DNA of 62,682 bases, filler included, from Kipferlia bialata (Eukaryota): assembly GCA_003568945.1 (NCBI GenBank). It is 4 parts of 4 records of this genome, joined end to end, with 100 filler letters (N's around TTAATTAATTAA, not from the genome) between each part and the next. Parts side by side here need not be neighbours in the genome. Positions count along the whole stretch, not along the records: positions 1 to 15,611 come from BDIP01000683.1; 3 more parts are not named here. The stretch is one strand, 5' to 3'. This document shows positions 597-31,221 of this stretch, one piece after another. The translations under genes were made by a program, and so were the position numbers. The notes under the pieces were generated by a model that saw nothing but the letters and a program-made list of their open reading frames with translations, ran no database searches and was not told where the DNA came from. Within the stretch, counting starts at the first letter, position 1. Every line of letters begins with the position of its first letter.

Positions 597-2715
597 CTAG
601 TAGTTGATTGCCCCCTCCCTCATCCACTGCACAGGGTCACTGGCATAGGCTACATACTTGGAGGCCTGGAGTAAGGATATACATAGAGAGAAATACAGAC
701 TCATATACTTGGAGGCCTGGGGTGAGTAGTATATAATTGAAGTGAGAATCGATATAAATGCTAGAGACTCAAATACTTGGAGACCTGGGGGGAGAATTTA
801 GTTGAAGAAACAGAGAGAAGAATCGGTAGGTACATCGTTAAGACTTGGAGACATAGGGTAAGTCATAACTATAGCATATACGTACCGCCTCTGTCATCTG
901 GGGTGCCTTCTCGTTGAGGCACACCCCTGCATGGGTGGGCAGGATACCCAGCCTGACTAGGTACTTGTGGACAGTCTGAAGAGTAAGCAGTGGTATACTA
1001 CACGATGGGACATATGCGACGGGACTAAACACAACTAAGGCAGTAGTATTCTACGCGATGAGACATAAGATACGCGATAATACCTGCGGCAGGTTCTTGT
1101 GGATGTCTGGGTGCACTGCCGCGTCTGCGGTGTGTCTGGAGCAGTAGTTGAAGATGCGGCCCAGCTGTTGGAGCTCGAGGGAGTTGCACTTGATGCATCT
1201 GAAGTCAGCCATGGTTATACATTGTTTCACACACACATATGAATATATATGGATGATTCATATTGAAGCTCGAGGGAGTTGCACTTGATGCATCTGAAGT
1301 AAGACAAAGAAGAGAGAAGAAACCTAGTGTGTCATGTCAGTTTCTAACACTGATACTGAGTTGCACTTGATGCATCTGAGGTCAGCCATGGTGTATATAC
1401 ATTGTATCATACACATATATATATATATGGATTCTATACTATATATGAATGTAATATATTGTATCATATTGAATCTATAGGGAGTTTCTATCTCTACCTT
1501 TCCCCCCTCTTCGTGTCACACTGTGACGCGGCTAGCCTGTGCAGCCCCCCAGCCAGGTCGTTGACGTCCCAGGGAGGTACATCAGCGTTAAGTGCCAGTG
1601 ACACATCCAACACACAGGAAGCCGCAGTGCGGTAGAGACCGTGTACATAGACCATACCCACGTTGGTGCCTGAAGTTAGTTCGGTTACGCGATTCACTAG
1701 ATATTGCTACACGATGACTCTACCTGGCTGACCAGGGGTGGACAAGAGGTCTGTGTCCATGAGCATGAAGAACCTCTCTCCCTCAAGGACGTGCTGGACG
1801 AACCTAGCGTTGGAGTACTCGGTTAGAGTATACACAATAGAGGAGACTCACCTCCATATCGACAACACTTTCACCAGTGCAGTAGAGTATGTAACTATTC
1901 ACTACTGATAGGCTGAATACCACATATACAGTATATGTATACTCACATCATCTGTAGAGTGTCCCCCACGTTGATCAGTCCCCTCATTAGTATACAAATA
2001 CTATATATATATACATACATATAGTAAGTAATACTACATACACTCACATCATCTGCAGCGTGTCCCCCACATTGATCAGTCCCCTCATGGCAGCCCGTCT
2101 CTGCTGCACAGCCATGCCCAGACACTGCACTAGACGGCCCTGGTATTAATAGGTGTATAGTATATATAGTGAATATATATATATAGTATGTATACAGTAT
2201 ATACTGTCTCTGCTGCACAGCCATGCCCAGACACTGCACTAGGCGGCCCTGGTATTAATAGGTGTATAGTATATATAGTGTATATATATAGATGGTATGT
2301 ATATAGTATATATTGTCTCTGCTGCAGCCATGCCCAGACACTGAACCAGTCTGCCCTAGGGGTGAGACTGGTAGATATATAAGCATGTATATATAGGAAT
2401 TCACATATCTATAGTACAGCAGCCATGCCCAGACACTGCACTAGACGGCCCTGCTGTTAGAAGGTGTATAGTACATAGTATATATACAGTATAACACTCT
2501 CTCTCTATGTATATTGATACTAAATGTAAAGAGTTATGCCCAGACACTGCACCAGTCTGCTCTGGCAATAGAAGGAGTCCTATATACATATAGATACATC
2601 AACATACTCGATATATATAGACTACTAGGTACACGTACACTACCCATGGTCATGGTCTTGACCAGACTAGATATACAAATGTATATACTAGATACATGTA
2701 TATACTAGATATGAG

Positions 2716-2749
<34 letters not shown>

Positions 2750-5700
2750 ACGTACACTGCCCATAGTCATGGTCTTGATCATGTTTGGGTCTGAGCGGCC
2801 CCTCAGCGTGATGTCGCCCCATGGCACCATCTGGTACATGAGACATAGAGAAGTATGTGGTTCATGACACACATATATACACTGACATATATACTTAATA
2901 GAGAGTGATGCCACCCCAGGGAACCTTATGGTGTCAGATGCATAAGAGACAATATCAGGCCGCAAACTGATACTGATATATATATATACACTATAGAGAG
3001 TACCCACCCCATTATTCCCGATATCCGCCTTGGGCTCTATCAGCGGCATCAGGTGGGTGGGAGAGAGAGACACCATGGCCTCAGAGGCAGGGCCAGGGAG
3101 GGTGTAGGCAGCGGTGTCCAGCACCACACGCACAAACCTACGCGATCTGGATATCTGGATCTTGACTGGGGTAGTGTTGACAGGCACTGGGAAGGCTGCT
3201 GCCCCCACCCTCTTCTTGCCAAGCATGACCTGGGGTGAAGAGTATATAATATAAATAATGTATATATTCATGGTACTCATGTCCATATAGTATACTATAC
3301 CATAGTACACTATACCATAGTAGTATACCATCCTATAGTATACCATCCCACTTTGCCAAAAACGACCCGACATCAATAACACTCAGTATTATATATACAC
3401 AGTATGGTATACATAGTTCCCTAGCATAACATAGGTATATGTATGGTCAGTATCAGTATGGCGGTATGGTAACCAATGAGTAGTACATTGATAGTAATTA
3501 GTATCATATCAGTATGAATATGTGTTACCTTAACGCTGTATACATCACAGTAGTCCACCCCGACGATGGTCTTCTCGAACAGAGGCACACCCCTCTTGAT
3601 GTATGCATCCAGGGTACCAGGGAGGGTGTACTTGGGGTCCTTAATAGGAACCACGGTCGGGAGCTGGTTGGTATCCTTTACAAAGCTAAAGGTAAAGAAA
3701 ACTTAAATCACATTCAGAGTATTGAGAGTACTCGGTGTGCGATAATTACCTGTCACTGACACTTGTGGGAATGACCACCTCGAATGTCAGTCTTGTCGAC
3801 CCCTCGTGTCTGCTCCACCTAAGCTCCCTCACCCCTACCCCGACAGACTCATGGGGAGGGGGTACGTAGGGGGTGTAGGGACACACAGAGCAGGCCTCCA
3901 GACGCACGCCCTTGCGGCAGTGAACTGATGGACCTGGGGGTAAGAGGCATGTGTACATACGGGATAGTATAATTACGCGGTAGAGCACCCACCCTTGACT
4001 GGGGACTGGGCACACGCGACCTGTAGCTTGCGGCTGTATGGCGACATGACACTCTTCCTGAGACAGGTGCACAGGCTGGGATGACCACATATATGTATAC
4101 ATTGTACATCTAAGAAATACACTACAATGTATATATATATATATGTATATCTATATATAGTTATGACACTCTTCCTGAGGCAGGTGCACAGGCTGGGTGT
4201 AGGATACTCCAAGGTACTACTATAAAGCAGAAGCGCAGAAATACATATGCACTAGACACGAATCTACAACGTGTATAGAATTCTCGCCCCGTGACATGCT
4301 TCTAAATCTGTACACATACATGTGAGTTTATACATATGCATACCCCCTACCTTGCATCAAATGGCACAGGCCCCACTCCATACAGGGCATAGGACTGGAC
4401 AGAGCCTAGAGTGAATGACTGCAAGATGTATATATTCAGAAGGAGAGAGAGAGACAGGGCATACGACTGGACAGAGCCTATAGTAGGAATTATGTCTGTA
4501 TTATATATATATGTATAGAAGGAGAGAGATATGAAGAGAGGCACTCGATTGCACAGAGCCGACAGTTAGATAGAGAGGGGGAAGGGAGCAAGGTACATTA
4601 GTTGTAGCAGTGCCTACAGTAACATACATGAGATATATAGAGAGAATAGCGACAGAGGAGTGAGAGTGGTCATTGACATGCAGCATTACCTGACTTGACC
4701 ATCCAGCTGGTACTCCTGCCTGTTGTGTCCACTGTTGCAACACCTCCTAGGTGACACCCACCCTTGTCAGCACCCAGGGAGCCTGGGGGTTAGAATATCT
4801 TTGTTATACCCAGTATAGTATACTACCATACTACAAGATATATGTCACCCACCTGATATGGCCGGTGTGCCATAGTTGAACCCGTCCTGGATACTCTTCA
4901 TACCAGGGGCAAGGCCAGTGGTGGACATGAGCTGGAGGGTTAGATATAGACTCTATACTATATACTATACACTATATACTATATATATACTTTGTACTAT
5001 GCAGTGTATACTATATTCCAATATATCTATAGGCAAGGCCGGTGGTGGACATGAGCTGGGGGTGAGTCTAACTGTATTCCATACGTTCATATATACGCAT
5101 GTATATATATGTATTCATATGAGATACAATATACCTGGAACAGCCCCATTGACATGCCCTGCCCCTTCATCAGAGACTCCATGGAGGGCATATATACTAT
5201 ATACACTGTACACTATATTTACTACATACATACATATATATACATGTCTATACCTGAAACAGACCCATGGACATGCCCTCCCCCTTCATCAGGGACTCCA
5301 TAGAGGGGGCATACTTGTTGGAGGACATGTCGACATCGGGGCACAGGACACGCCTATGTATTAGTATAGAACTACACACACAAATATACGGTATAGTATA
5401 CATAAATGTAAATTGATACTGAAATTGACTTGATGCCATGTCCACATCAGGGCAGAGGACGCGTCTGGGGGTCAGGTAGAGTATACTTCTACTGCATACT
5501 ACACACACACACATGAATACCCAAAAAGTATCGAGAGTCAGTAACAATCTACTACTACACATATCACACACCTTGGTATGTACCATTGTGACATGGGATT
5601 ATATGTATAAATATGTATTATATAATATGAAAACTATATATATATATAAATATATATATATATATCTATATAAGTATGTATTTTTGATCCTAATTCCAGG

Positions 5701-7569
5701 TCCCAGAGGGATTCTCTGCGTCGACGTCTCTCCTTCTCCCCTCTCTCTATGTATACCTCATACCTACACTATTCATAGTATACAATGAAGTTTAATACCT
5801 TGGCACCATTGTGACATGGGTCAGTATGTCCCCAGACCTTAGGGCAGTCCCATCTTCGTCTCTCTCTTCTTCTGCCCAGTCCCACCCTCCCTCTCCCTCT
5901 GCATCCCTCTCCTCTCCCTCAGTGTCTAGCACCCTGACACACAGGCATATGTCCTCGCCCCCAGTCACTCTGGGGTCAGCTATGTATACAACGCTGTATC
6001 CTCTATATACTATATGTATATACACAATGCATACCGTGTGTCTACACGGTACTCTGCCATGGTGGCAACTCTCTCTCTCTTCCTCTATAACAGTCAACAT
6101 ACACATGTATATACATCTCCATACCTTGTGTCTATACCGTACTCTGCCATGGTGGCAAAGAGAGAGGGGGCAAGGTACATGCCTGAGATTAGAGAAGAAT
6201 ACAATACATGATAAGGAGAGAGAGAAAGGAGGGGGGGTAAGGTACATGCCTGGTGGATCAGAATATAGGCATTTCCAGGGAATACTATAAATGGGGAGAG
6301 AAAGAGAAAGAGGGCAACATTTATGCCAGGCAATTACTACATGAATATGAACACACACACACACACACACACAGAGAGAGAGACCCGTACCGTCGTGTGT
6401 CCCCACATGGAACAGAGGGACTAGTATATAGATAGATACTAGAGATTTAGTATATTTTCAGTATTACTCATATATACAACTATATATATAGTCTCGTACC
6501 GTCGTGTGTACCCACATGGAACAGGGGGTGCTTGGAGCCTTCAGGGGCCTGGAAGGGTGAGTCACGGTGGTGGACATAGAGGTAGTGGGAAGAGGTATCA
6601 GTATATATAGTAAAACATATATACCATTCCGCACACCGCTGCCATGAACCTGGGCATGGGTGAGACCGGGTGCATCCATATATATAGAACATTACTAGAT
6701 GTACTACTTGGTACTTCATTATATATATATTATATACAATATGCACTATAGTCTATACCTTGCCGCATACAGCTGCCATGAACCTGGGCATGGGCGAGGC
6801 CAGGTGCACTCTGTACAGTGATACCACACTCTGGCCATCGGGGATGTGGACCTGGGGGTGAGTATATAGATGCAGATGTATTCACTGTATATTCATACTA
6901 GATGAGAATACATATGTATATACAGCATTTGAATAGAGCGAGACACCACACTCTGGCCATCGGGGATGTGGACCTGGCGGTTAGGGAATTGCATAATATG
7001 TACAGATACATGTATACAACATGAGTGCAGCTATCAACGGAAACTAATACTCCGCTGTGACCTCTGTATACATGATGACAACACTTCTATATACTTCTAT
7101 GTATATTATTATATGTATACTATTATATTATTATGAAATCGAAGACTCCAAACTACACACATCACATAAATATTTACCTTTGTCTCCCCCCTCAATACCC
7201 TTCCTGTCCCGACCCTATCCTCTCCACACACAGACAAAGTATCACAGTCTAAGCCAACAGGGACTCCCAGGTAGTGGGGGGCTGGGGTTAATTCAATGCA
7301 TTGATTTTGTGTCATCAATCAATCAACTGTGTACCTTCCATTTTCCCAGGGAGCTGGGGGCTGGAGTGCCAATATATCATATACAATCAATCAATTGATA
7401 TATAGAAGTTAATGCGATGATGATATGCCTCTGATGCCATAAAGCAATAGACCCTGTACCTTCCATTGCGTCTGGTGCCTGTGCCTGGTAGAGTCCCCTC
7501 CTGCACCCAATGGCCACAAGGGCACAGAAGGTGGAGAGGCAGGGTAGGCTATGACTAGTGTGTTAGAGG

Positions 7570-7616
<47 letters not shown>

Positions 7617-8308
7617 AATGGCCACAAGGGCACAGAAGGTGGAGAGGCAGGGTAAGCTATGCCTAAAGAGTAAGAGAGAGAGAGAGAGAGATTCTTTGGC
7701 CACAAGGGTACAGAAAGGTGGATAGACAAGGTATGCTGTGCCTAATATATGAGAGGGAGGGAGAAAGAGAGATATGGCTATTCTAAAGAGCACTCACCCC
7801 ACGTTCCCATTGGATGATGCCGGGAGTGTCTTGTAGACACTTATAGTATAGGTGAAAATGTGAATATAGTATACATAGAGTATGTGTATACACTATCCCC
7901 TACCCTACATTGCCACTTGGGGATGCCGGCAGTGTCTTGTGCAGCACCTACACATATACAGAACAAATAGATATACATGATATAGACAGTATATATTACA
8001 TATTATTCACTATGCACCCACCCCACATTGCCATTGGGCGATGCCGGGAGTGTCTTGTGCAAGACACCCATCAAACACCGGTGGACATGGCCGGAGGCAG
8101 CCTCACCCTGCGGTGCTAGGGGTTAGACGACTACTACTATATACACAAGAGAGAGAGAGAGAGATAACAGGTGGACATGGCCGGAGGCAGCCTCACCATC
8201 CTGTGCTGGTATAAGAGTAGAGAGTAGAGAGAGAGAGAGAGATACCAGGTGGACATGACCTGAGGCAGCCTCACCCTGCGGTGCTAGGGGTTAGACGATT
8301 ACTACTAT

Positions 8309-8344
<36 letters not shown>

Positions 8345-8679
8345 TTAGTAGACATGGCCTGAGGCTCACCCGCCTCGGCTAGGGTTAGATATTCACTTAC
8401 CGAGAGAGAGAGGGACAGTATAAGTTGGCACAGGAGGCATATAGAAGAGAGAGAGAGCGAGAGAGACACCCACCTATATCTGTGCAGGGTGGGGGCAGTG
8501 GCACAGGGATAGGTAGGTACTAAAAATACAATGAATATATATATATATATTTATATATATATATATATATACATATAATTATATATACACCCACCGATGT
8601 CGATGCAGGGTGGTGGCAGTGGCACAGGGGTGGGTAGGTACAGTACCATATATACAATGAATATGTATACATACAATAT

Positions 8680-8714
<35 letters not shown>

Positions 8715-11700
8715 ATGCCTATACCTATGTCGATGCAGGGTGGTGGCAGTGGCACAGGGGTGGGTGTGAAGGACAGGTTGGTGTGGCCATACATGGAGGA
8801 GCCTCCGGTGAGGCCCTGGGGTCAGTGTCCAATACACAATGCTATGTTCTCTCTATATGTATAATCAATCCATATAGTCTTCAAATTACACGGATACATG
8901 GAGGAGCCGCCGGTGAGGCCCTGGGGGTTAGACACTCTCTGTCCCTCATTCTCTGAGAACACACGTAACGTAAATACACAATCTATACCTCCGACCTCTG
9001 ATCGACCCTAATGGATACCGACCTAGAATACTACACATATATACATACAGCAACATACTTCATATATGTATATAAGTGTATAAATACAATCTAAACAGTG
9101 TATACCTCCGATCTCTGGTCCATACTTCATATATGTATATTATATACTAACAGTGTATACATACCTCTGATCTCTGGTCCGTCCCTATGGATGCCGACCT
9201 GAGGATGGAGAAGGCCAGCATCTCACTGCCCCTCTGCTCTTCCTCTTCCTCACGGAGTGCCCTAGGATTAGAGTAGGACAGAAAACATGACCCTCACTCC
9301 TGTGAATGTATAAACACCACGCATACTATATATACACATTGTATCATATATGAACTACCTGACTCCAAACACGTGTGGCAGGTCCCTCACTCTCACCCCA
9401 GTGGCTGTATACATGTATATATGTACAATCAATAATATATATATGTATGTTTATATACCTCACTCCAAACACGTGTGGCAGGTCTCTCACCCTAACCCCC
9501 GTGGCTGCCCTGAGGTATCCATCCAGAGACTGGGTGGTCGTCTCGGAGGATATCCTGGAAGTTAGCGAACTGTACATATATATAGTATTTGCTGTATAAT
9601 ACATATATGCAATCATACAACCTTTCCTATATACACACTATATATACCTGTGGAGTGCCACTGCATGCATCACCGACACCCCGGACAATATGTATGTTGG
9701 ACTACACAGTATACCATATATATAATTAGCATATACTATACAATATGTATATATATATTATACCTGTGCAGTGCCACTGCGTGCATCACTGACACCCCGG
9801 GTGTCCTCAGGAAGCCAGGCACAACAACCAGGAGGTTGAGAAGGCCTGGAGCTCAGAATGATACATTTACATATATATGAATACTGAGAGTCAGAAGGAA
9901 TTACTATATGGGAATTATACAGGTTTCCTTTATACATAAATACACATACATATATATGCACACTGTACCTATGTAGTCCGCCATATTTGATGCCGTGATG
10001 TAGTCACACAATACATATATATATGTATGAATATGGAGTATTATGTATGTATGTATACCAGGAGTAGTATACATCACATACATCCTATATGTACACAATA
10101 ATATACACTCAATCATACCTATATAATCTGCCATGTTTGATGCCGTGAGGTAATACACATAGTATATACAATTAGAAGTAATGTCAGTCTCTACTCATGA
10201 ATATGCATGTATACATATATAGATGTGTGTGTGTGTATCTACCTATATATATTCTGTACCTATGTAGTCTGCCATGTTTGATGCCGTGATGTAGTCATAC
10301 ACAAACACCCTGTCCCTCTTGGCAGGGGCACCCTTGGAGGCATGGGGTGAGTATGATAGTATCACTCTCTAGATTCACCGTCTATACTATGAATATAATA
10401 ATAAAAATATATATAAAAAATACCCTTTCCCTCTTGGCAGAGGTGCGCTTGGAGGCATAAGTTGAGGAGTATAATACATGACACTTCAGACATTACACAC
10501 AGGTACAGTTCATACTAGAAACTGTATACATATACATATATACGCCCATATACCTTAGTGACTGGCGTGTCTGCATAGCAGTGCATGTGGGGGCTGAGAC
10601 TGCGCTCTAGGGGGTGAGAGGGAGTAGAGAAACACATAACACAATATATATATGTGTGTGTGATATACACCTCAAGGGTGAGCGGGATAGACACACAAGG
10701 CACACCATAAGTAACATGTGAATGTGGAAGAGGGAGGTAATATCAGACAGCAGCTAACAGACGATACCAAGACAGCAGAGACACACGCACGCATAGTTAT
10801 ACACATAAAGATACAGTACCTAACAACAACTGCAAGCAGTCCCCTGCCAGCAGTGTGATCTCCACCCTTTCAGATGTATACACTACTATATATACATACA
10901 TATATATAATTACCTAGCAACAGCTGCAGACAGTCTCCAGCCAGCAGTGTGATCTCCACCCTTTCAGATGTCAAGATATATGTACTACTCTACCTATCTG
11001 TCTTCATGTATATACATGTGAGTATACCTAGCAAACACTGGAGACAATCCCCAGCCAGCAGTGTGATTTCCACCCTGCCAGAGGTCAAGATATACACACT
11101 ACTCTATCTATCTATATACATATATATGGTGCAGCTACCTAGTAAGAGCTGTAAGCAGTCCCCAGCGAGCAGTGTGATCTCCACCCTTTCAGATGTCATT
11201 GCAGTGCCCAGGCACTTAAGCCAGGACACAAAGATGGACTAGGATTAGAAGCAAGTACATACATATATACAGAGAGAGAGAGAGAGAGAGAGGAAGGTGT
11301 CATGGCAGTGCCCAGACACTTCAACCAGGACACAAAGATGGACTAGTGTTAGACGTATAGATGTATATGACAAGTTAGAGTCCCACCTCAGCACACTCGA
11401 GGTCTACTATGAGGGATCAGCATCAGTATCTAGGTATATATTATATATTACATACCTCACACTCGAGGTCTGATCTCAGTTTGTGGCTGTCAGTCTTGGA
11501 GGGATAGCCTGGGGGGTGAGACATCAAAGATATTCATGTGTCATAATATGCTGTCCCAAGTCCTCACTCTCTATCTTTCTCCACATATATAGTAATTATA
11601 TATAGAGACACAACAGACATACCTAGGATGGGCTGTGTGCCGTAGTGTGCTGTCCAGAGGGGACCAGTCTCTCTATCTCTCTCTCTCTATTAGCTAATAT

Positions 11701-13451
11701 ATATATATATATACGTATACACATACCAAGGATTGGCTGTGTCCCATAGTGCGCTGTCCAGAGGGGACGGCATGTGAGGGGGCTGTCCAGACACTCCCTG
11801 AGGGTGAGGGTATATCATATATACATATATACACTATTAGTATATAAACACAATAAATATATACATATATTATATAGGTTCGCGAGAGGGCTGTCCAGAC
11901 ACTGTCTGTGGTAGGTGCTACTAGATACATTTAATAGACAGATCAGAAAGTATGTTCTTACATACCATATACCCCAAACTAACTAATTGTACCTATAGTC
12001 CCCTAATCTGTACATGGCTGGCCACTGCATATACATGTATATATATATGTACACACTAATCTTATACTAATTATTCACAATACCCTACCTATAATCCCCC
12101 ACTCTATACATGGTTGGGTTGGCCACGGCATGATCCACTTACACAACACACACACACACATATATATACACATATATATCATATAGTACACATACAATGA
12201 CATACCTATAGTCCCCCACCCTGTACATGGTTGGGTTGGCCACGGCATACTCATCGGGGGCACCGGTGTAGGAGCCGTCAACCACATAGTCAAGCTGCCT
12301 AAGGTTAAGAGTATTACACATATATATATATATACATATATAGAGAGAGAGAGGTAGATGTAAATGTACTGATACCATCAACCACATAGTCAAGCTGTCT
12401 AAGGGTGAACATAGTAGGTATTATATACAGTGTATATATTATATACAGTGTTTGGAATTAGGTCAGATTGGAATGATGCACACAGACGACCTGTCAAAGG
12501 GAGAGTATAGCTGACATACGATATCGCATATTGGAAGCATAGATACTGTGACAACACATCGCATAGTCAAACTGTCTGAGGAGTGAGAGAGAGAGAGAGA
12601 GAGAGAGATAGTCAAACTGTCTGAGGAGTGAGACTGTGATACACACCAATGGTAAAAGAGTGGTAAAAGAGTGGTAAATAGTGATTAAACATACTTCTCC
12701 AATGTCTTCCCGTCCATGCATATCCCCAGTCCCCTCTGGATCAGAGCCTTGGCACACACCCTCAGCTCCTTGCCAAGGGCCGGCATGGACTGGGGTGAGG
12801 TATACAACATAGCAGCTATATATAGTACATGGACTAGAGAGAGAGAGAGATCAGCATACCTTGATGGAGGGTCTGCCGGAGTGGTTGGTCTGGGTCCCGG
12901 TCGAGGCCTAGGGTGACAATGGATATGTGTGTATAATATATACAATATAATATATGTATAGTATAGAGTAATGTGAGACATGTATGCACCATGACGATGG
13001 GAGCAGCAATTGTACCTCATATACATGAGAGATACTACTAGACCAATACTGATACACCTGGTACCGCGCCAAGATACATGTATATATATATATATATACT
13101 TATACATATTCATATATAACTATAGACATTTACCTGGTACCGCGCCAAGTGGACGTCTGTTCTAGAACGGGCACAGCACTGGGAGTTAGAGAAGAGATTC
13201 ACACATTCACCCTAAGAAATACATATATATATGATACCCCCATTACCTTGTTATAGTTGTGTGGCCCTGTCTCTGCCCACAACTGTAGCACAGGCAGTAG
13301 ACAGCATCTCTCTCTCTCTCTCTCCCATAATACATATACAAATATCCATATACCCTACCTTATTGAAGTTCACCGGTCCTGTCTCTGCCCACAGCTGTAG
13401 CACAGGCAGTAACTGCTGGGCGGTGGCCATGCCCATCCTGAAGAGTAAGTG

Positions 13452-13486
<35 letters not shown>

Positions 13487-13495
13487 CAATGAATG

Positions 13496-13543
<48 letters not shown>

Positions 13544-14079
13544 ACTGTTGGGCGGTGGCCATGCCCATCCTTATTGTCAATAAGGAAGAAAGAGTGATAG
13601 CTTGATATATGAACAAATAGAGAGAGAGCGCTCATTTCCGTAAGAGTACATATATTCATCTCGTATGGGGAGTGGCCATGCCCATTCAGGGGGTTAGAGA
13701 AGGAAAGAAACATCGGATACTCATATATAGTACAGTCCAGTATGCACATGCTGTACCTAACAGCAGGTACAGATGGTAGCTCCACCGGTGAGTACTGGGT
13801 GTGTGGCACAGGGGGGGTGTCGGGCAGGACACGGGCATTATCAGGGCCATAGGTCAGAGACTCGATCTGAGGGGTTAGATGTGAATGATACGATTCATAT
13901 ATATATAGAGAGAGAGAGAGAGGGAGAGAGAGAGAGAGTCTATAAGGACACGGGCGCCATTAGAGAAAGTCAGGGACTCAATCTAGAAGTTAGATAGAAA
14001 TACCTATTCATACATAGAGAGAGAGAACTAGAGTATAATAGAGGCGTACCTCCTCCACCAGCTTCCGGCAGGTGTTCCC

Positions 14080-14117
<38 letters not shown>

Positions 14118-15324
14118 ATATATATGTACTTATATATATATAGATACATATTTATATATAACACTTCATATATATCTACAACCTCCTCCACCAGCTTCCG
14201 ACACGTGTTACTCAGACACTCTCTCACTATCAAACTATATCTTGTATATGGTATATATACTACACTAGAGTAGTACCTCCTCCACCAGCTTCCTGCACGT
14301 GTTCCTCAGCCTCACTAGATCCTTGGGAGAGAGGTATGCATCATACATCACACGCCACAGGTAGGAGGCAAGGGTATTGAGGGTTTCTCCTGAAGTTATA
14401 CATTGGCTATATATCTGTATATGAACACTCTACCATTCAAGGTGTAATATGTATGCGTCATCACACGCCACAGGTAGGAGGCTAGGGTGTTCAGTGTCTC
14501 TCCTACTGTTAGAGTAGTGATACTAATCTAATGTCACATACATGTTCATACTATAGATATATGTATTGTATATAGCAATACATGACACGCCACAGGTAGG
14601 AGGGAAGGGTGTTGAAGGTCTCGCCTGTCATAAGCTCATATCGTATTAGTGAATATATGAATATATAAGTGTATTGTTGTGTACTCACCCTTGACCCTCC
14701 TCTTGATGCTCTCCCCTTTGGGGTTGGACCAACTCTCTATATATATACATATGTATACATGTAGACGTGTCTAAACTATTTCTAGTACTCATTGAATCAC
14801 ACTCACCCTTGACCCTCCTCTTGATGCCTCTCTCCAATCTACAATATAACATAACTATGTACATGTCATTTGCATAGAGGTACGATACTATAATATCTCA
14901 CCCTTGACCCTCCTCTTGATGCCCTCTGCATTGGGGTTGGACCGGGTGGGGCGGATCTGGGGTTATATACACATACGAATGAACTCACAAATACACTTGT
15001 ATTAATAAATGTACCAATTAACAGTTGGTGGGGCGCACTAGGTTAATATCAGTGTTGACGAGTAGCTTCTAATACGTGTTAGTGTGAACAGCCGCCACAT
15101 GGATACAGAGACCAGGACAAATGTATCCATATATACAGTGGATACCTTCTTGTTCCATGCCCTGACTGTGTGTGCCACAATCATGATGCACTTCTGATAT
15201 GCCTATGCATATATGATATGCATATACATGAATACATGAATACATACATATATATACATATATCTGATACCTTCTTGTTCCATGCCCTGACTGTGTGTGC
15301 CACAATCAGAGTGCGGCACAGGAC
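597..15324 (-). CDS. large multi-exon (>30 exons) DUF4470-like protein of the family that carries a MYND finger in fungi; 5'-truncated
   Basis: Exons chain in frame from VLCRTLIVAH (15324) to GAINY* (stop 597-599). Motifs recalled from that family: VEITLLAGDCL, YDYITASNMADYIGLLNLL (cf. FDVIDTSNLxDHLGxLNLL), FPVPVNTTPVKIQISRSRRFVRV, VYVHGLYRTAASCVLDVSL, HKYLVRLGILPTHA. Confidence 0.7.
10820..11085 (-). repeat. three intronic 3'-half echoes of exon 11139-11238, each ending in a GT donor
   Basis: Copies start at 10820, 10914 and 11028; two encode exactly TSERVEITLLAGDCLQLLL and one has two amino-acid changes; they are separated by unrelated TA-rich spacers. Confidence 0.95.
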
Positions 15325-15611: not shown

Positions 15612-15711
15612 NNNNNNNNNNNNNNNNNNNNNNNNNNNNNNNNNNNNNNNNNNNNTTAATTAATTAANNNNNNNNNNNNNNNNNNNNNNNNNNNNNNNNN
15701 NNNNNNNNNNN
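15612..15711. other. artificial scaffold-joining spacer (N-run, TTAATTAATTAA, N-run)
   Basis: The same 100-nt block recurs at 31320 and 47014; it has stops in all six frames; flanking segment lengths descend (15611, 15608, 15594, 15569). Confidence 0.97.
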
Positions 15712-15764
15712 TTTATAAAAATAATGGAACCCCCCCCCCCCCCCCCCCCATTCCCTCATCCCAG

Positions 15765-18465
15765 ACTCCCGCACCTCGGGTCTGTCTGAGGCCAAGGCCA
15801 CCATTCATGACCTCAAGAAGAGTCTGAAGTACAGGGAGAAGGACATCGAGAGGCTCACAGCATCACTCAATGGAGTGTACAGGTTAGGGTCCTGTCTAGT
15901 TGTACTATTACATTCCATGTCATTGATACATCATCACTGTCTAACCCCCAGTGACCTGTCTACCACCCGTGCCGAGTTGCAGTGGTGGAGGGAGGAGGTG
16001 GGGCCCCAGGGCAACTACACCCCCCCTGCCTCTCTGGTGCCCATACCTGTGGAGACACTCAAGAGAGAGAGAGAGAGGAGCACAGAGGGAGATGAGTCAT
16101 CCCTCCTGGATATGCATGCTCTGGATGAAACACTCAGTGGCGCCCCCCTCTCCCCCACCTCTTCTGTCTCCAGACACCACTCGAGACACACCTCCAGACA
16201 CGGGTCCAGACCGCACTCCAGACACAGGAGCACTAGGGAGAGAGGAAAGGTGGAGGCAATGCTGGAGAGGGAGAAGGAGAGAGCGGATACGGCGGAGAGA
16301 GAGCTGGCCGAGCTGAAGGAGTCTCTGGCAGAGTTCACAGCCTTGGAGGAGGAGAGAGAGAGGGAGAGAGAGAGGGCTGCTGCCAGGGAGGCCGAGGCGT
16401 CTGCCCTGAGGGAGAGAAAGGCAGCCATGGAGAGACAGAGGGCGCAGGAGGCAGGCATATACGCCATGCACCCCACCAAGGTGGGTATCACTTGTGCATA
16501 GTATGTATATATATATATATTCCATTATTGGTAGAATCTCTCTCTCTGTGCCCCTCCCACCCCCAGCCCGAGCCCGTCCCCCTCGACTCCTCCTCCTCCT
16601 CTGTCGAGCAGGCTGGGTCCCAGGCACTCACTGCCTTTGCGGCACTCAAGCTGGACCTGGCAGGGATACCAGGCATCAGATCAGCTGGGTCGGGAGGTGA
16701 GTGAAGTAGAGTGTTGACTAGGTGTCTTTGTTGTCATATTCCCTCTATAGTTACAATGACATCTGTTGCGTCTCACCCCCCAGCTGCCGGTGCCATGGAC
16801 AGTCAGAGGGCTCTGGAGAAGGAGAGAGAGAGGGACGTGCCTGCCCTGCACCACAAGAGGACGGAGAAGGTATATTGTGTATGCGTGTCTGTGTATATGT
16901 ATTAGGAATTGCTCTACGGACTCTCCATATATCATCCACTTAGTCTAACCCCCCAGCCTGGTCTGTACATGAAGGAGAGAGAGTCCTCCTATGTGGTGCC
17001 AGGGACCCCCGAGGGACAGAAGACAGAGAGGTGAGAAGGGTACAACTACGAGTCCTTGTCCATGCACACATGTCTATAATAATTGTTAGTCTGTCTCTCA
17101 CCCTCAGGCCCGATATTGGAGACAGTCTAGCCGCTGCCTCCCGCCTGGCTGGTATGTCCTCCCTGACTGTGGATGATACTGTGGATGGGGACACGGGTAT
17201 GGAGCCATCCACAGAGAGCGAGAGGGTGTACAACATTGCATCATTGGGCAGCAGTCACGCACACTCCATGCTGGGACAGACACAGGTGAGGGGGTATGGG
17301 TGCTAGTGAGGTGTATTATTGCGTATCCAACCCCAGACTGGTGCCTTGTCGCTAGGCCTGCCCGCACACCGTGGGGTGGAGAGGGAGAGAGACCCTGTCC
17401 CTGAGGTTGCAGACCCCCTAGCAGGGTCAGTGGCCCTGAGGAGAGAGGTGGACAGACTGGAGGCCAAGAACAGGTGGGTGGGCAGTCATATAGACACAGA
17501 ACAGTATGTCATAGTAGTCATACGTACAAATCCGATCGATGTTGCTCTCCTACTTCCTCCCCCTGACCCCCAGGCTGTCTGAGGACAGGGTCACCAGGAC
17601 AGAGCATGCACTGGCGGAGATGCAGGTGGGTAGCATTGTAGTTAGTGTGTATGTATATACCCTAGTGTGTGTTTACCCCCAGACTGTGTTGGAGCAACTG
17701 GCCAAGGAGCTGCAGACGCAGAGAGAGAGGGAGAAGGAGAGGGAGAGAGAGGCCCAGGCAGCTAAGAGAGCAGAGAGAGCAGAGAGGGAGAGGGAGAGGG
17801 AGAGCGATACCTCACCAACCACACTCAATGTCGTCGATATTAGGTATATACATTTGTATATATATGACATTCTGTGCTCTCCTCTTTCGCAAAGCTTCTA
17901 GGTAAGCATACCCGGTATCCCACCCCTCTGACCCCAGGATGTCCAACTCCAGTATGAGGCGCAGCATAGGCCGCAGCAGGGACGCATGCAGGGATGCCGA
18001 TACCGACTACCCCCCTGCCCCCAGGGGTCAGCGAGACATGGAGACCACCCCGTCCAGACCCCCTAGGTCCAGGCACAGACACACAGAGCCCAGGGTGCCC
18101 ACCCTCGATGTGGGTACCTCCCCCCATGCAGCTGTTGTGCCACACTCTGCGCTGGAGGAGGCACTGGCTGCTGCTGCGGCCATACAGGTAGGGGGTGGCA
18201 TGTGGGGTATCGCGCAGGGTGTTGTGGGAGACCGGTTGGTGTGCTACACGTATCTCGTAATGGGTATTCGCTTCTCCATTTCCTCTTACCTTAGGATGGT
18301 GCCGAGGAGAGAGACGGCACATACAGAGGCCAGATTGAGGATAGGTGGGTGTTGTGATTGGGTCTATATTATCACATAAGCAAGTAAGTGACCCACCCTG
18401 ACCCCAGGCGTCTTGAGTTGAGTGTTGCCAGTAGCACTATAGAGGCACTCATACCACAGCTCCAG
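15765..18465 (+). CDS. hypothetical coiled-coil / low-complexity protein (internal part, ~12 exons)
   Basis: In-frame exon chain with short GT-AG introns (e.g. exons 15765-15880, 15953-16480, 17683-17842, 17938-18187, 18408-18465); E/R/A-rich heptads; ends at a poly-C break. Confidence 0.7.
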
Positions 18466-18497
18466 GTAATGCAACTTACATACGAATGCATACAGTG

Positions 18498-18541
<44 letters not shown>

Positions 18542-18633
18542 TCTTTTACCATTCAGGTAGGAATACTCTCTCTCTCCCCCCCCCCCCTCCCTCTGTGTCT
18601 CCATCTCTCGCTGTCTCTCTCTCTGACTGTAAG

Positions 18634-18861
18634 GCAGGAACACTGTCCTCGTCAGTGGGTGGAGGCAGGCCACACAGGACCCCTCACTCTTTATGTTGAC
18701 CCGAACCGACAGTGACCCTTGTGAGAGTACCCATGCCATTCCCAGGTACTAGCCCTACGTGGGTATATGTAGTAATATACAACTAACCCTCTTTGGCCTG
18801 TGGCTAGACAAGTCTCTCTCTCGTCTCTCTCTCTCGTCTCTCTCTCCCGTCTCTCTCTCTC

Positions 18862-18908
<47 letters not shown>

Positions 18909-19951
18909 TCTAGGTGGACAGTATCTCCTGACATCCCCACCCCCTTCGACCCCTCCTCTCTCAAGGCCATGATATATATATATATATATATATATGATCC
19001 TGATAGGGGGTATCAGTATCAGTATCAGTCATAAGTGATACTGATACATGATCCTGATAGGGGGTGATGTCTACATCTACGGGGTCAGAGACAGGGAGGG
19101 GGCTCTCTCTCCTGACCTCTACATACTGCACCTCGACACTGTCTCCTTCGATACCATCGAGAGAGGGGGGGAGGGGGAGAGAGAGGGGGAGAGAGGGGAA
19201 GGGGTAGTGTGGCCACCACCCAGGCAAGAGCCTGGTCTCTTCAGCCAGGAGGGTCTCTTGTACGTGCTGGGTGGATACACGGGATCGGCTAGAACAAGGT
19301 ATGTAGCATATATTCATATATATACTATAAGGCTATCCCATATACACTCTGTATATCAACGGTCTCATGTGCCTCTTGGGTGGTCAGTATTCTCATATCC
19401 CTCTGAGGAGTGAGAGTGGAGCGACTGCTGGGTGTATGACCCCGAGACATGACGTATCTCTCTCTCTCTCTCTATGTATATATATATTCATGTATACTAT
19501 TATATATATAAATATTCATGTATACTAACATCACAGCAGACATGAGGGACTGCTGCTCCTCTCTCTCTATGTATATATATACTAACATCAGAGTAGAGTG
19601 TATGGACTGCTGGGTGTATGACCTCGAGACTGGACAGTGGACACAGCATCCATACATGGGGCACCACCCAGTACACTACACGAAGACACGTGGGGTATGT
19701 CTTACAGTGGCCTTGTACTCTCTCTCTCCCTCTCTCGTACTGAACATCTTTCTCGGACTCTCTCCCACGATCTCCACCTCTAGATCATTATGGGTTGTTA
19801 ACCGATCCACTCATTCTCTCACTCCCTCTCTCTCTCTGTCTCCCACTCTGTAACTCACCATCAGTCTCACGTGAGGTTCCACTCACCCAAGCACCGAGGG
19901 GGTGGTTATGTGCCAGAGGCCCCTGGCAGTCTCAATGACACCTACTGGGAG
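18634..19951 (+). CDS. kelch-type beta-propeller protein fragment, possibly disrupted
   Basis: Motifs ILIGGDVYIYG, DLYILHLDT, WPPPR...LYVLGGY and DCWVYDLETGQWTQ; exon 18914-19298 is interrupted by an internal duplication and (AT)n. Confidence 0.7.
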
Positions 19952-19953
19952 GT

Positions 19954-19996
<43 letters not shown>

Positions 19997-20236
19997 CGAC
20001 CTGACACCTAATGTGACGTACTCGTGATACTTTATTGTGTAGTTGTCTCTCTTTCTCTCCTTCTAGTTTCTCTCTCTCTCTCTTGATACTGTATCGTGGA
20101 GTACTGTATGCGTAGCATATAAGGATGTGATGCTGTCACTCTCCCGCTCTTCCTCCCTCTCTCCCTAGTCGAACTAACACCCACTCTCGCTCTCTCACTC
20201 TCTCTCTACCTCGCTAGTCCCTCACTCTGTCAGGCA

Positions 20237-21048: not shown

Positions 21049-21298
21049 GAGAGTGGTGAAATAGGGAATATGGTGGTACTCTGTTCTGAGAGGGCGAATA
21101 GAGTGTACCGATCACTACACCCTTTAGTGAAGTTGTGGCCTTTTGTTTGTCACTTTGAACTCGATGATCCCTGACACAACTGTCCCCTCTCCTCCTCTTC
21201 TAACAGACAAATAGTCCATACTTACAATAAGAGCATGAGTCTCAGCACCGTTAACGCGTATGGTTGGGCCAGCAGCAGGTCCATGGATACCGCAGATG

Positions 21299-21329
<31 letters not shown>

Positions 21330-21495
21330 CCATATAGACAGGATGGAAGAGTATACCATAGGTTACCACACCATACACTTCTTGACTCTAGATTTACAGT
21401 TGAATCAATAATTGTTCATACTAGGCACTCGGCCTCTTTCAAGGGATATTTGTGCTATCATATTACTTAATGATATTCTTCTATTGGCAGCTACA

Positions 21496-27166: not shown

Positions 27167-27214
<48 letters not shown>

Positions 27215-27299
27215 ACCCCTCCCCTCCCTCTCTTTTCTCTGTTCAGTTGCTTCCCTTCGGCTATTTATATACATGTATATATACAGTATATAGTGTCTC

Positions 27300-27765
27300 T
27301 GACCCCAGGGCACCTCTATCGTGGACTCATGCATATTCAATTAGGGCACTTATGAAATGGAGTATATGTATATGTATCCTTCTGAATGTAATAGTGTCTG
27401 ACCCCAGGGCATCTCCATCGTTCACCCAATAAGAACACATATGTATAAGAGTATGTACAATTACTCCTGAATATGTATATATATGGTGTATGATGCATCT
27501 GACCCCAGGGCACCTCCATCGTTGACACACATGCTTATTCATTTAGTACACATATGATATGGAGTATATGTGATATGGAGTATATGTATATGTACATCAG
27601 CCTATATGTCTGACCCCAGGGCACCTCCATCGTTGACTCCACCCCAGGCACCACAGCAGACACAAAGGTATGGGTATATGTGTATGGTCAGTTATATACA
27701 AAAATATATATATAGAGAGAGAGAGAGAGTATGAATGTACCCCCGGCACCACGGCAGACACTAAG
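27300..27765 (+). repeat. echo array around the HydF G2 exon: three acceptor echoes and one donor echo
   Basis: TCTGACCCCAG|GGCA.. ends at 27308, 27407, 27508 and (full exon) 27619; 3' echo 27739-27765 is followed by GTATGG. Confidence 0.95.
27609..27619 (+). promoter_or_regulatory. representative fused branch point / 3' splice site CT(A/C/G)ACCCC(C)AG
   Basis: Precedes most exons throughout the window on both strands; no separate polypyrimidine tract between branch motif and AG. Confidence 0.85.
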
Positions 27766-28995
27766 GTATGGGTATATATTTGTAATAAGAATAGAGAGAG
27801 AGAGAGATTTCCAATCACAGGTTGCCCTGATGGAGATGCACGGGATGGGCCCAGTCAAGCTGTTCGACACAGCAGGTATGTATATCTATATTGAATATGC
27901 ATTGATGGTTCTGGTATATACAATTGTATCTATAAATATGTATATATGATATATTGCACGGCCCTGTCAAGCTGTTCGACACAGCAGGTATGCCCATGCC
28001 TTAACGATGATATCCATACACATACATATCTATCTGTATGTGTATTCACTCATCTAACCTCATGCCTGACAAGGAGAATAGTGTCTATTATTATTATATA
28101 CTATATAATATACTGTATAATATACTATTATATTTACATTCATTATTATATGTACACTTCACGTACACTACAGTTCTATTATTTCCAAATACTGTTTCTC
28201 ACCCCATGCCTTGACGAGGAGGGTATCCTTGGGAACAAGAAGCATGCCAAGACATACCAGGTATTACAGTGTGTTTAGATATTCACACAGATTCATCGTG
28301 TTATACTGTATGTACATAATATAGTATATATATGATATATTATTAGCAAGAAGCATGCCAAGACATACCAGGTGCCATTTACAAAATTATATTTGACTAC
28401 ATGTGTATACAATAAATGTAACATTCATAGTGATATAGTTGGTACAGGTATATATATGTATTCCACTGGTCACTCACCCGTAGTCCCTTGCCCAGAGTGA
28501 CGTGGCCCTCCTATTATACTAATACCATTTACTAGTGTATATACCATTGAATAGTATATATCAAATTGTTTCTAATCCTCAGTCCCTTGCCCAGAGTGAC
28601 GTGGCCCTCCTGCTAATCTAACATTTATATATACATATGAATATATGTATTATATATGTATTACTATATATAGATACCTCATCTAATCCTCAGTCCCTTG
28701 CCCAGAGTGATGTGGCCCTGCTTCTAGTGGACCCTGCATCAACACCCCCAAGGCAGGGGGACAAGTGTGTGGAGGTATGTATATGTATATATATACAAAT
28801 ATGTATGTATACATATATATATATACCTTGTGGACCCAGCATCCACACCACCCAGACAGGGGGACAAGTGTGTGGAGGTATGTATATATATATGTATATA
28901 TATACAAATATGTATGTATACATATATATATACCTTGTGAACCCAGCATCCACACCCCCAAGGCAGGGGGACAAGTGTGTGGAGGTAAGAATATG

Positions 28996-29031
<36 letters not shown>

Positions 29032-31221
29032 TACTCTGCATCCACACCACCTGTCCTGACATAGTATATATGTGTGTCTCACCTCTCAGTTTGATGTCCT
29101 GTCCCGTGCCAAGAGTGACGGTTAATAATAGTTATATGCTGGGTTATACTCTCTCTCTATATATGTCTCTACACTTTTCAATGTCTCTCTAATCCGTCAG
29201 TTTGATGTCCTGTCCCGTGCCAAGAGTGACGGTGTCCCTGTGGTGGTGGTGTTCAACCACTTTGAGGGCACAACACGGTATGTTCACATATATATATATG
29301 GGCTTCTTAAGTATATATACTTTTTAACACAGGATTATTGTTTAATATATATATACATATATATATGGGTGTTCAACCACTTTGAGGGCACAACGCGGTG
29401 AGTACAGTGTTTCGTTTGTTGTCTACGTATTGTGAATCTATTTTTCATTGGTTAATGTATTTGACCCCCAGTGACTCCTCTGAGGAGTGCTATATCGTCC
29501 TTGCTCTCTGTCTCTCTCTCTCTCTCTTCCTCTCATATATATATGAATATCTCACCCCAGTGACTACTCTACCGAGCACATATCTCTCTCTCTCTCTCTG
29601 TCTCCCCCCATCATCATATATATATATATATATATTATTATATATATATATATACCTCTACCCCTCAGTGACTACTCTGCCGAGTGGTGCCGTGCCCTAG
29701 GTGATTATTATATATATATCAATTATTAATACATATATATATATATTGTCTTTAACATATATAAGTATATCTAACCTTAGTGACTACTCCGATGAGTGGT
29801 ACCATGCCCTGGGTGATTAATACTTATATTTATATATATATATACGATATGTATTAATATATATGTATAATGTCTCTTATATCAGTGACTACTCCGATGA
29901 GTGGTGCCATGCCCTTGGTGTGGGGACAGGGGCAGAGGGGGTCACAGTCATCAAGACAGGTGGGTATATGTCATATACACAGATTAAGAGAGATACCATA
30001 CTGGTGTCATCATTATAGGAATATGAATTGTATATATGAACGCATTACTCACTTCACGATCCCTCTATTATTCTCTCTAATATATATACACCCCTGACCC
30101 CAGACCTGTCCAAGGACGTGGTGGCCCATGAGGTGGTGACTGACATACTGCAGGTATTGTCGATAGTAATATATATAGATACATATATATACATATATCG
30201 ATAGATAGATAGGTATAAACCAGTGTATACTAGTATATGTATGATTATGTGGTGGCCCATGAGGTGGTGACAGACATTCTGCAGGTATTTATGGAGAGTA
30301 GTATATATATATATATATAGATAGATATCAATAGATTGATAGACTACGAGTGTATACTAGTATATATTTAGGTGTGTTGTAGCCCATGAGGTGGTGACTG
30401 ACATACTGCAGGTATCATAATATATATGCCTACTAGTGTATACGCGTTCACTAATATATTGTAATTGGTATGCAACTAGTACCACAATATATATACTTAT
30501 ATACATATACTAATATATATTCTGACCCCCAGGCCACCAAGAAGAAGACCAGGGCCCTGCCACCACTACTGCCAACAAGCATCACAGGTATAGGGAGTCT
30601 ATATTCTCATGTTGTATTGATGTGTATGTATATACACACACTGTCCCTACTGCCCACAAGTATCACAGGTATCGGGTGTATGTATGTACTACCGTTGAGT
30701 TTTATATTATTTGCATATATATGTACGTATTTAGACACTCTGCCACCCCTACTGCCAACAAGCATCACAGGTATAGGGATGTATATACATACCACGGTAT
30801 CGGTAAATATATACGATATGGTAAATATATATACACCCATACTTGATTACTGCGATAGGATACTGTGGTGGGGTCTCTGCCTCTAACAGGTAATCGTCTA
30901 GATAGGCTACTTTTGTGTACGCCTAACCTATATGCAGCAAGGGGTCTGTTGTGCTATAGAAGTATATTAACTAGTATATTCTAACTATTTTGTGTATGTG
31001 TATCTCTCTAACCTATAGGCAACAAGGGCTCTGTTGTGCTCAACATCCCCATGGACGATGAGACACCGGGGTCAAGACTGCTCAGACCTCAGGTATATAT
31101 ACATATATCACTAGCTACTCATGTGCATTTTGACCATATATGTGTATTGCATGTGCCCTCATTCCCAGGCCATGTGTCAGGAGCACCTGCTTGGGAACTT
31201 TGTCACAACGGTGGCATACAG
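27620..31221 (+). CDS. hydF: [FeFe]-hydrogenase H-cluster maturation GTPase HydF (partial: G1 motif and C-terminus missing)
   Basis: Spliced product GTSIVDSTPGTTADTKVALMEMHGMGPVKLFDTAGLDEEGILGNKKHAKTYQSLAQSDVALLLVD...VVLNIPMDDETPGSRLLRPQ matches the HydF G2/G3 motifs and the PxDxxxPxGRLxxPQ motif. Confidence 0.9.

What the first reader, a model, noticed from the sequence alone, without database searches (positions are those of the whole stretch)
10820..11238. Clearest echo case: two copies with 7 substitutions each and no amino-acid change
Seen: the real exon ends ...CTC GCT GGG GAC TGC TTA CAG CTC TTA CTA G|GT. Echo 10914-10971 reads CTG GCT GGA GAC TGT CTG CAG CTG TTG CTA G|GT and echo 10820-10877 reads CTG GCA GGG GAC TGC TTG CAG TTG TTG TTA G|GT. 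Both include two-step Leu switches (TTA to CTG, CTC to TTG), and they also differ from each other only silently. Neither has an obvious acceptor. Inference: each copy experienced protein-level purifying selection independently.
Basis: seen in the sequence. Interest (0 to 1): 0.8.

Follow-up and report, generated by a model that had tools for sequence, protein, structure and literature searches.

The report
Introns archive old half-exon versions
In this Kipferlia bialata window, about half of the 111 introns examined hold half-copies of the neighbouring exon that differ from it mostly by silent changes and keep their splice signals; they are likely once-working versions pushed aside by recombination between diverged alleles, which would make these introns an archive of past alleles.

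Summary
Confirmed. The exon at 11238-11139 (minus strand) is followed by three 3' half-copies. The two named copies each differ from it by 7 bases and 0 amino acids, and from each other by 6 and 0. The third has 13 differences and 2 amino-acid changes. DNA contigs carry the array at the depth of the flanks, and the one RNA-type contig uses only the first copy. The feature is widespread: 97 such echoes lie in 53 of 111 modelled introns and none is a whole exon. dN/dS is 0.14-0.19, against 0.51-0.54 simulated for duplication plus decay; 51 of 55 3' copies keep GT. Two of four gene pieces do not differ significantly from that null. Where an exon has both 5' and 3' echoes, they never overlap by more than 8 nt (0 of 20). 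The organism is Kipferlia bialata. Best reading (0.5): echoes are displaced halves of formerly working alleles, multiplied by unequal exchange inside exons. Selection on them today is not shown, and no second isolate was found. I found no description in the library searched.

The parts
11139..11238 (-). c1, the working 100-nt exon (acceptor upstream, GT donor at 11138-11137)
   Evidence: RNA-type contig X2 record 9 matches it with 0 other letters; open frame
11028..11087 (-). c2, 3' half-copy with GT donor; 13 nt and 2 aa differences from c1
10914..10973 (-). c3, 3' half-copy with GT donor; 7 silent differences from c1
10820..10877 (-). c4, outermost 3' half-copy with GT donor; 7 silent differences from c1, 6 from c3
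11168..11196 (-). 29-nt arm identical in c1, c3 (10971-10943) and c4 (10877-10849); likely exchange site
   Evidence: role inferred
11088..11138 (-). spacer 1; homologous to spacer 2 (11027-10974) and spacer 3 (10913-10878), including the junction into the next copy; not homologous to the intron after c4
   Evidence: spacers 1/2 and 1/3 rank above all 37 control introns; 2/3 rank 4 of 37; comparisons with the intron after c4 are at background
11295..11342 (-). 5' half-copy of the same exon with its own branch-like motif and AG; overlaps the 3' copies by up to 8 nt
10554..10606 (-). next working exon; the RNA-type contig leaves 54 letters between c1 and the exon after this one, so there is no room for c2-c4
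   Evidence: record 9 coordinates 1018-1071
597..15324 (-). host gene 1: 39 exons, 1236 codons open, 5' end missing; 54 splice-anchored echoes in 29 of 38 introns; protein family not determined
27620..31221 (+). second gene (HydF-like GTPase; label recalled from motifs, no call) with 17 echoes, dN/dS 0.06-0.07
28694..28984 (+). mosaic example: exon plus two 3' echoes, in which each of the three copies is the odd one out in a different segment
47166..62443 (-). gene pieces g3 and g4 (predicted, not RNA-checked) with 26 echoes, dN/dS 0.21-0.42, not significantly below the decay null

Best explanation
The echoes are real half-exon copies in the DNA, skipped by the RNA-type contigs laid here, and are likely displaced halves of formerly working exons from diverged alleles. 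Inferred steps: (1) A break near mid-exon is repaired by copying about 110 bp (exon end, splice site, start of intron) from a diverged homolog. At least one end is joined without homology, so the old half stays behind with its own splice site and intron. (2) Only products with a single splice site survive, because a whole second exon would be spliced in. (3) Later unequal exchange and gene conversion, at short identical arms such as the 29-nt arm here, add units that share one junction and make mosaics. (4) The differences are mostly silent because each version gained them while it was translated in its own lineage; amino-acid changes build up only after displacement. Shown: anatomy, low dN/dS, kept splice signals, shared junctions, abutting halves, mosaics. 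Inferred: allelic origin, repair route, no selection today.
For: dN/dS over 97 echoes is 0.19, or 0.14 without the 9 nt next to the truncation. The same pipeline gives 0.51-0.54 on simulated duplication plus decay. GT is kept in 51 of 55 echoes against 0.72 simulated at matching pS, while the donor flank is at background identity from +6. Echo acceptors differ from the real ones at 5.9 of 14 positions yet score 6.8 bits against -3.2 for random changes. dN/dS differs by gene (0.06 in the HydF-like gene, 0.13 in gene 1, 0.21 and 0.26 in g3 and g4), as expected if the copies carry each protein's own constraint. 0 of 97 echoes are whole exons. In 20 exons with both kinds, the halves never overlap by more than 8 nt and 7 overlap by 1-8 nt (post hoc permutation p 5e-5 to 3e-4). 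16 of 31 sibling pairs share the truncation point within 2 nt. In gene 1, silent differences rise from 0.14 to 0.71 with distance from the junction, a slope absent in simulations. No paralogous exon contig was laid at 80% likeness. Fornicata lack Rad51A and canonical NHEJ and keep two Dmc1 (PMC8516963, passages), and Dmc1 is mismatch-tolerant (PMC7809202, search listing).
Against: The model needs alleles that differ at roughly a quarter or more of silent sites, and four such versions at this exon. No such allele was seen: the DNA contigs show no other letters at either locus (contigs drop variants), and two metagenome scans found no relative. g3 and g4 do not differ significantly from plain decay (p 0.38 and 0.47; 0.11 and 0.10 after trimming). 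The gene 1 slope is absent or reversed in g2-g4 (p>=0.98). Outer echoes are hardly more decayed than inner ones (pN 0.049 vs 0.042), and here the innermost copy c2 is the most changed, so there is no simple age order. c3 and c4 can have spent at most about 0.075 substitutions per site silent, so capture must be recent relative to allele age. The binomial p values treat codons as independent and are overstated.
Confidence: 0.5

Rival explanations
1. Live spare cassettes. Deletion or exchange between the identical arms often brings an echo's 3' part, donor and intron into the working slot, so damaged echoes are selected against now.
For: A crossover in the 29-nt arm would give an in-frame exon with the same amino acids for c3 and c4. 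Splice signals are kept, and outer copies are about as intact as inner ones. One unexplained DNA joint lies inside the array (10948 to 11042, side 23).
Against: Contigs over c1-c4 have even depth (441-478) and one order, so no common switched form is visible. 51 of 97 echoes carry an amino-acid change or indel. Exchange frequent enough to select would also homogenise silent sites unless the population is very large (inference). The tool flags joints with side under 30 as often spurious.
Confidence: 0.2
2. RNA-level use. Echo donors and acceptors work in nested or stepwise intron removal, or in rare isoforms, and that keeps them intact.
For: One intronic RNA-type contig (depth 4, 266 nt) ends exactly at the G of an echo donor (29398). 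If colinear, its other end falls near an echo acceptor at 29668. My rough estimate of the chance of such an end is 2-3%. The organism also splices GT..AT introns, so odd acceptors are possible.
Against: The main contigs join real exons across all echoes (8 of 9 joints listed in the second gene at depth 3985; record 9). Nested splicing would protect splice sites but gives no route to silent-only coding changes, because 3' echoes have no acceptor and the exon has no matching internal donor. It rests on a single contig from a run whose RNA status is the tool's guess.
Confidence: 0.1
3. Plain tandem duplication followed by neutral decay, with the silent-only cases picked out by chance.
For: The unit of about 110 bp and the lack of whole-exon copies fit it. 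12 of 97 echoes are identical to the exon. g3 and g4 fit this null.
Against: Non-silent differences are 116 of 317 against 57% expected (p 1e-13). Simulations give dN/dS 0.51-0.54, a flat profile and faster loss of GT. Echo-versus-echo dN/dS is 0.23.
Confidence: 0.05
4. Assembly artefact: alleles or strains laid end to end.
For: Silent-only differences and unalignable introns are what alleles look like. The introns are rich in microsatellites. Run X1 may be the window's own source (tool caution), so it is not an independent sample.
Against: Separately assembled contigs cover 8736-10875, 10848-10969 and 10944-11197 with 0 differences at depths 441, 478 and 466, against 362-450 for the other listed contigs. 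Two haplotypes would give half depth. The RNA-type run shows one version only.
Confidence: 0.04

Closest known systems
Intron gain by tandem genomic duplication (PMC3443670, passages)
   Same: Short intragenic direct repeats of exon sequence next to splice sites.
   Different: There an AGGT in each copy becomes donor and acceptor and a new intron results. Here the copy lies inside an existing intron, carries one old splice site, is skipped, and shows coding selection.
Tandem exon duplication and mutually exclusive exons (definition recalled; search listing)
   Same: Neighbouring homologous coding copies with low dN/dS.
   Different: Those are whole exons with both splice sites and are spliced as alternatives. 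Here 0 of 97 are whole and the contigs skip them.
Silent-cassette gene conversion, e.g. Borrelia vls (PMC11499132, search listing)
   Same: Silent partial copies beside an expressed copy, exchange through homology, mosaic copies.
   Different: vls varies the protein at one locus. Here the protein is conserved, many unrelated genes are affected, and switching is not shown.
Tetrahymena 90-bp-exon LRR arrays (PMC6564038, abstract and passages)
   Same: Exon-intron units multiplied and scrambled by unequal crossing over in a protist.
   Different: Those are whole, translated repeats in one gene family. Here they are half-exons, untranslated, in ordinary single-copy genes.
One-sided invasion and MMBIR template switching (PMC4888836, one passage and one reference title; one-sided invasion otherwise recalled)
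   Same: Templated copying with a microhomology junction gives short local duplications.
   Different: Known as sporadic repair outcomes, not as a standing feature of about half the introns examined or one with a coding-selection signature.
Nested introns (stwintrons; PMC8469720, search listing)
   Same: Extra splice sites inside an intron could be removed stepwise.
   Different: Stwintrons interrupt a splice element and are obligatory. Here the extra sites come with exon halves, and their use rests on one contig end.

Membership tests
Mutually exclusive duplicated exons | Each copy is a whole exon with acceptor and donor | tested here: not met
   0 of 97 full length; no junction AG before c2-c4
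Mutually exclusive duplicated exons | Alternative copies appear in mRNA | tested here: inconclusive
   Main contigs skip them, but contigs drop rare forms and no raw RNA reads were offered
Mutually exclusive duplicated exons | Copies under protein-level purifying selection | tested here: met
   dN/dS 0.14-0.19 pooled; not significant in g3 and g4
Intron gain by tandem duplication | Duplicated AG|GT used as donor in copy 1 and acceptor in copy 2 | tested here: not met
   The donor used is at the end of c1 and the acceptor is the next exon's; the shared arm reads AG-G-GT, one base out of register
Silent-cassette conversion system | Silent partial copies homologous to the expressed site | tested here: met
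Silent-cassette conversion system | Ongoing transfer from silent copy to expressed site | not testable with these tools
   Needs raw reads or clones; contigs show one order
Silent-cassette conversion system | Protein diversification at the expressed site | tested here: not met
   c3 and c4 encode the same residues as c1
Neutral decayed tandem duplicate | dN/dS of about 0.5 or more against the working copy, and splice sites lost at the neutral rate | tested here: not met
   (met only loosely for g3 and g4)
Captured or displaced alleles | Echo-type sequence is the working exon in another haplotype or isolate | not testable with these tools
   No second sample was listed and the metagenome scans were empty
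Captured or displaced alleles | Splice signals diverged yet of working quality, with unrelated flanking intron | tested here: met
Nested or stepwise splicing | Intermediates that begin or end at the inner splice sites | tested here: inconclusive
   One depth-4 contig ends at echo donor 29398
Assembly artefact | Copies at half depth or not bridged by sequence data | tested here: not met
   Depths 441-478 and overlapping contigs with 0 differences; the run may be the window's source

The most novel reading that the evidence does not exclude
Kipferlia runs a genome-wide exon-end shuffling system. Most exons sit between spare half-exon cassettes, each with its own splice site and intron. Dmc1-only recombination at short identical arms swaps them into the working slot often enough that all copies stay under protein selection while their silent sites drift apart, and the spare splice sites may also serve stepwise intron removal.
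Probability: 0.15. Interest if true: 0.92.

Novelty: new variant of a known kind. Interest (0 to 1): 0.72.

Why it matters
Intron sequence that is not translated should not show codon-level selection, yet it does here in many unrelated genes. If the echoes are displaced alleles, one genome holds a sample of its species' past alleles, so diversity, sex and recombination could be read from a single uncultivated-type protist genome. It would also show what repair does in a eukaryote that lacks Rad51A and canonical end joining. Intact decoy splice sites about 110 nt from the real ones, apparently ignored, make splice-site choice testable in a species for which no snRNA candidates were found (PMC6679479, passage). 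If the copies are live, this is a new kind of gene maintenance. In practice, echoes fool gene predictors: mine returned 13 calls that do not match the hand model among 37, mostly echo pieces.

Tried and rejected
No whole genome was held, so all counts come from this window, which is several contigs joined by N spacers. The run search listed only two runs of one sample, with no RNA holder on record; X2 is RNA by the tool's guess, supported by its spliced joints. Bins over c2-c4 have no X2 depth; I rely on the contig's continuous coordinates, not on the blank. Metagenome scans with two long ORFs of other genes found no relative. Three single-exon queries failed as too short or out of frame. The protein family of host gene 1 remains undetermined. 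Three look-ups of earlier findings returned nothing. Literature searches: Kipferlia+intron (25 of 33 listed), Kipferlia+exon (14 of 16), and generic combinations. None showed a description of these copies in titles or abstract starts. 'duplicat' occurs 0 times in the main text of PMC5874029 (I read parts 1-2 of 6 and passages) and 0 times in PMC6679479 (passages). Supplements were not opened and subscription papers are not searched. Rejected: paralogue donors elsewhere in this genome (none laid at 80% likeness); mRNA or cDNA templates (the echoes carry splice sites and intron); error-prone one-step copying (would give mostly amino-acid changes); a general rule that differences sit near the splice site (true in gene 1, not in g2-g4); a link between flank homology and silent divergence (none). 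Dropped before counting: 1 of 98 detected echoes that did not reach a splice site; one predicted exon (49424-49389) judged to be an echo. The last g3 exon was extended by hand. Genes at 15712-27619 and 31420-47000 were not modelled, although echoes are visible at 38870-39520. Echoes scoring under 30 are missed.

Full report
Observation. On the minus strand the exon 11238-11139 (c1) is followed by three copies of its last 58-60 nt: c2 11087-11028, c3 10973-10914 and c4 10877-10820, each ending at a GT. The frame comes from a hand-built model of 39 exons with one open frame of 1236 codons. c1/c3 differ by 7 bases and 0 residues, c1/c4 by 7 and 0, c3/c4 by 6 and 0; c2 differs from c1 by 13 bases and 2 residues. 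All c1/c3/c4 differences lie in positions 30-55 of 58, and the first 29 nt are identical. A 5' half-copy with its own acceptor lies upstream at 11342-11295.

Organism. An ORF at 23241-26201 matches a protein named by its source as Kipferlia bialata KIPB_003535 at 100% identity over 90% of the query; it was the only hit among 7994 candidates scored. K. bialata is a free-living fornicate with 124,912 GU-AG introns and two k-mer peaks read as diploidy (PMC5874029, parts 1-2 of 6 and passages). The window is several contigs joined by N spacers, and no whole genome was held.

Is it real DNA? Contigs of run X1 cover 8736-10875, 10848-10969 and 10944-11197 with no differences at depths 441, 478 and 466, like the other listed contigs (362-450). 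Two haplotypes laid end to end would give half depth. The donor ends and the spacer 1/c2 junction are properly bridged; the junctions into the c3 and c4 arms have 30 letters on one side. X1 may be the window's own source, so this is a second assembly, not a second sample.

Is it expressed? One X2 record was laid on 8700-13500. It is spliced, matches c1 with 0 other letters, and leaves 54 letters for the next 53-nt exon, so it has no room for c2-c4. In a second gene, the main contig (depth 3985) joins the modelled exons across all echoes, with 8 of 9 joints listed. Contigs drop rare forms. One intronic contig of depth 4 ends exactly at an echo donor (29398), which is a weak lead for use of echo splice sites.

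How general? I modelled four gene pieces: g1 and g2 by hand with RNA support for part of g1 and nearly all of g2; g3 and g4 by a script that recovered 24 of 25 g1 training exons but also made 13 non-matching calls, so those two models may contain errors. 98 echoes were detected and 97 reach a splice site: 42 are 5' halves with an acceptor and 55 are 3' halves with a donor. They lie in 53 of 111 introns, and none is a whole exon. In gene 1 the repeat unit has a median of 111 nt. By class, 12 are identical to the exon, 34 differ only silently and 51 carry a residue change or indel.

Selection signature. Pooled pS is 0.22, pN 0.049 and dN/dS 0.19. Non-silent differences are 116 of 317, against 57% expected if the real exon changes only silently and the echo decays (p 1e-13). 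Without the 9 nt at the truncation, where alignments overshoot, dN/dS is 0.14. Simulated duplication plus decay through the same detector gives 0.51-0.54 and keeps GT in 0.62-0.89 of cases; observed, 51 of 55 keep GT and 39 of 42 keep the acceptor dinucleotide. Echo-versus-echo dN/dS is 0.23 over 31 pairs. Against this, g3 and g4 (0.36 and 0.42; 0.21 and 0.26 trimmed) are not significantly below the null, and codons are not independent, so the p values are too small. The lowest value (0.06-0.07) is in the HydF-like gene (label recalled from motifs).

Anatomy that points to a mechanism. Echo acceptors differ from the real ones at 5.9 of 14 positions yet score 6.8 bits, against 8.8 for real sites and -3.2 for random changes. 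Donor flanks fall to background identity from +6. So the splice sites changed while staying usable. In 20 exons with both kinds of echo, the halves never overlap by more than 8 nt and 7 overlap by 1-8 nt (post hoc p 5e-5 to 3e-4), as if they were two halves of one split exon; quick collapse of longer overlaps would give the same ceiling. 16 of 31 sibling pairs share their truncation point within 2 nt, and here spacers 1/2 and 1/3 are homologous while the intron after c4 is not. Arrays therefore grew from one junction. In gene 1, silent differences rise from 0.14 at the junction to 0.71 at 45-53 nt, with no such slope in simulations; g2-g4 lean the other way. At 28694-28984 each of three copies is the odd one out in a different segment. 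These patterns indicate exchange among copies.

Best explanation (0.5). The echoes are halves of exons that once worked in diverged alleles. Repair of a mid-exon break copies about 110 bp from a diverged homolog and leaves the old half behind. Single-splice-site products survive. Unequal exchange and conversion at identical arms then add and mix units. This fits Fornicata's loss of Rad51A and canonical end joining with two Dmc1 kept (PMC8516963, passages) and Dmc1's mismatch tolerance (PMC7809202, listing). The repair route is inference. The weak point is that it needs very diverse alleles, and none was seen: the DNA contigs show no other letters and two metagenome scans were empty. Outer copies are also barely more decayed than inner ones (pN 0.049 vs 0.042). 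Rivals are live spare cassettes selected through reactivation (0.2), RNA-level use (0.1), plain decay (0.05) and artefact (0.04). The first two DNA models grade into each other and both need a large, diverse population. About 0.1 is left for mechanisms I have not thought of.

Known systems. It works like a mix of local templated duplication and silent-cassette conversion, but fails the membership tests for mutually exclusive exons, intron gain by duplication and antigenic cassettes. Nine searches of the paper library showed no description of these copies at the level of titles and abstract starts, and two Kipferlia-related papers have no occurrence of 'duplicat' in their main text. Supplements were not read and subscription journals are not covered.

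Verdict. The feature is real, not explained by chance or plain decay in the two RNA-supported genes, and apparently undescribed. It is a new variant of known duplication and conversion processes; interest 0.72. The boldest open reading, a live exon-end shuffling system, has probability 0.15.

Noticed in passing
window 10342-10341, 1211-1210 (minus), 28207-28208 (plus), and four predicted sites in 60064-61956: Introns that end in AT instead of AG (GT..AT): 7 of 111 modelled introns. The one at 27876-28207 is a listed RNA joint and the one at 10341 fits the RNA coordinates. Echoes of these exons often keep the AT.
   Followed up: partly
window 29398-29495 (X2 record 11): An intronic RNA-type contig of depth 4 ends exactly at the G of an echo donor; if colinear its other end is near an echo acceptor at 29668. 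Possible excised inner intron.
   Followed up: partly
window 10948-11042: A DNA joint skipping 93 nt inside the array (side 23, depth 453). Unexplained; the tool flags such joints as often spurious.
   Followed up: no
window 10682-10665 (minus): An acceptor-like motif followed at once by GT inside the intron after c4; could be a decayed 5' echo or a recursive splice site.
   Followed up: no
window 27620-31221 and 27170-27240: HydF-like GTPase gene (label recalled from motifs). Its upstream exon seems missing near a long poly-C run; the RNA contig has 81 letters that lie on nothing before 27617.
   Followed up: partly
window 15612-15711, 31320-31419, 47014-47113: N runs around an identical 12-nt stop-codon spacer: the window is separate contigs joined artificially, so neighbours across them are not linked.
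   Followed up: yes
window 38870-39520: An exon with four upstream echoes in a plus-strand gene that was not modelled.
   Followed up: no
window 56510-56546, 55706-55741, 49389-49504, 53515-53553: Echoes identical to their exon over 27-39 nt but with different intron sequence right beyond the splice site, suggesting conversion limited to the exon part.
   Followed up: partly
window 597-15324: Most exons are 45-130 nt and echo-free introns as short as 54-70 nt, so exon plus minimal intron is near a nucleosome repeat length (idea only).
   Followed up: no
window 23238-26201: A 987-codon open frame; the matching database protein P0001 carries Pfam PF14312.
   Followed up: partly
window 46921-46999: A 39-nt tandem repeat at a contig end, unlike the surrounding sequence.
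   Followed up: no
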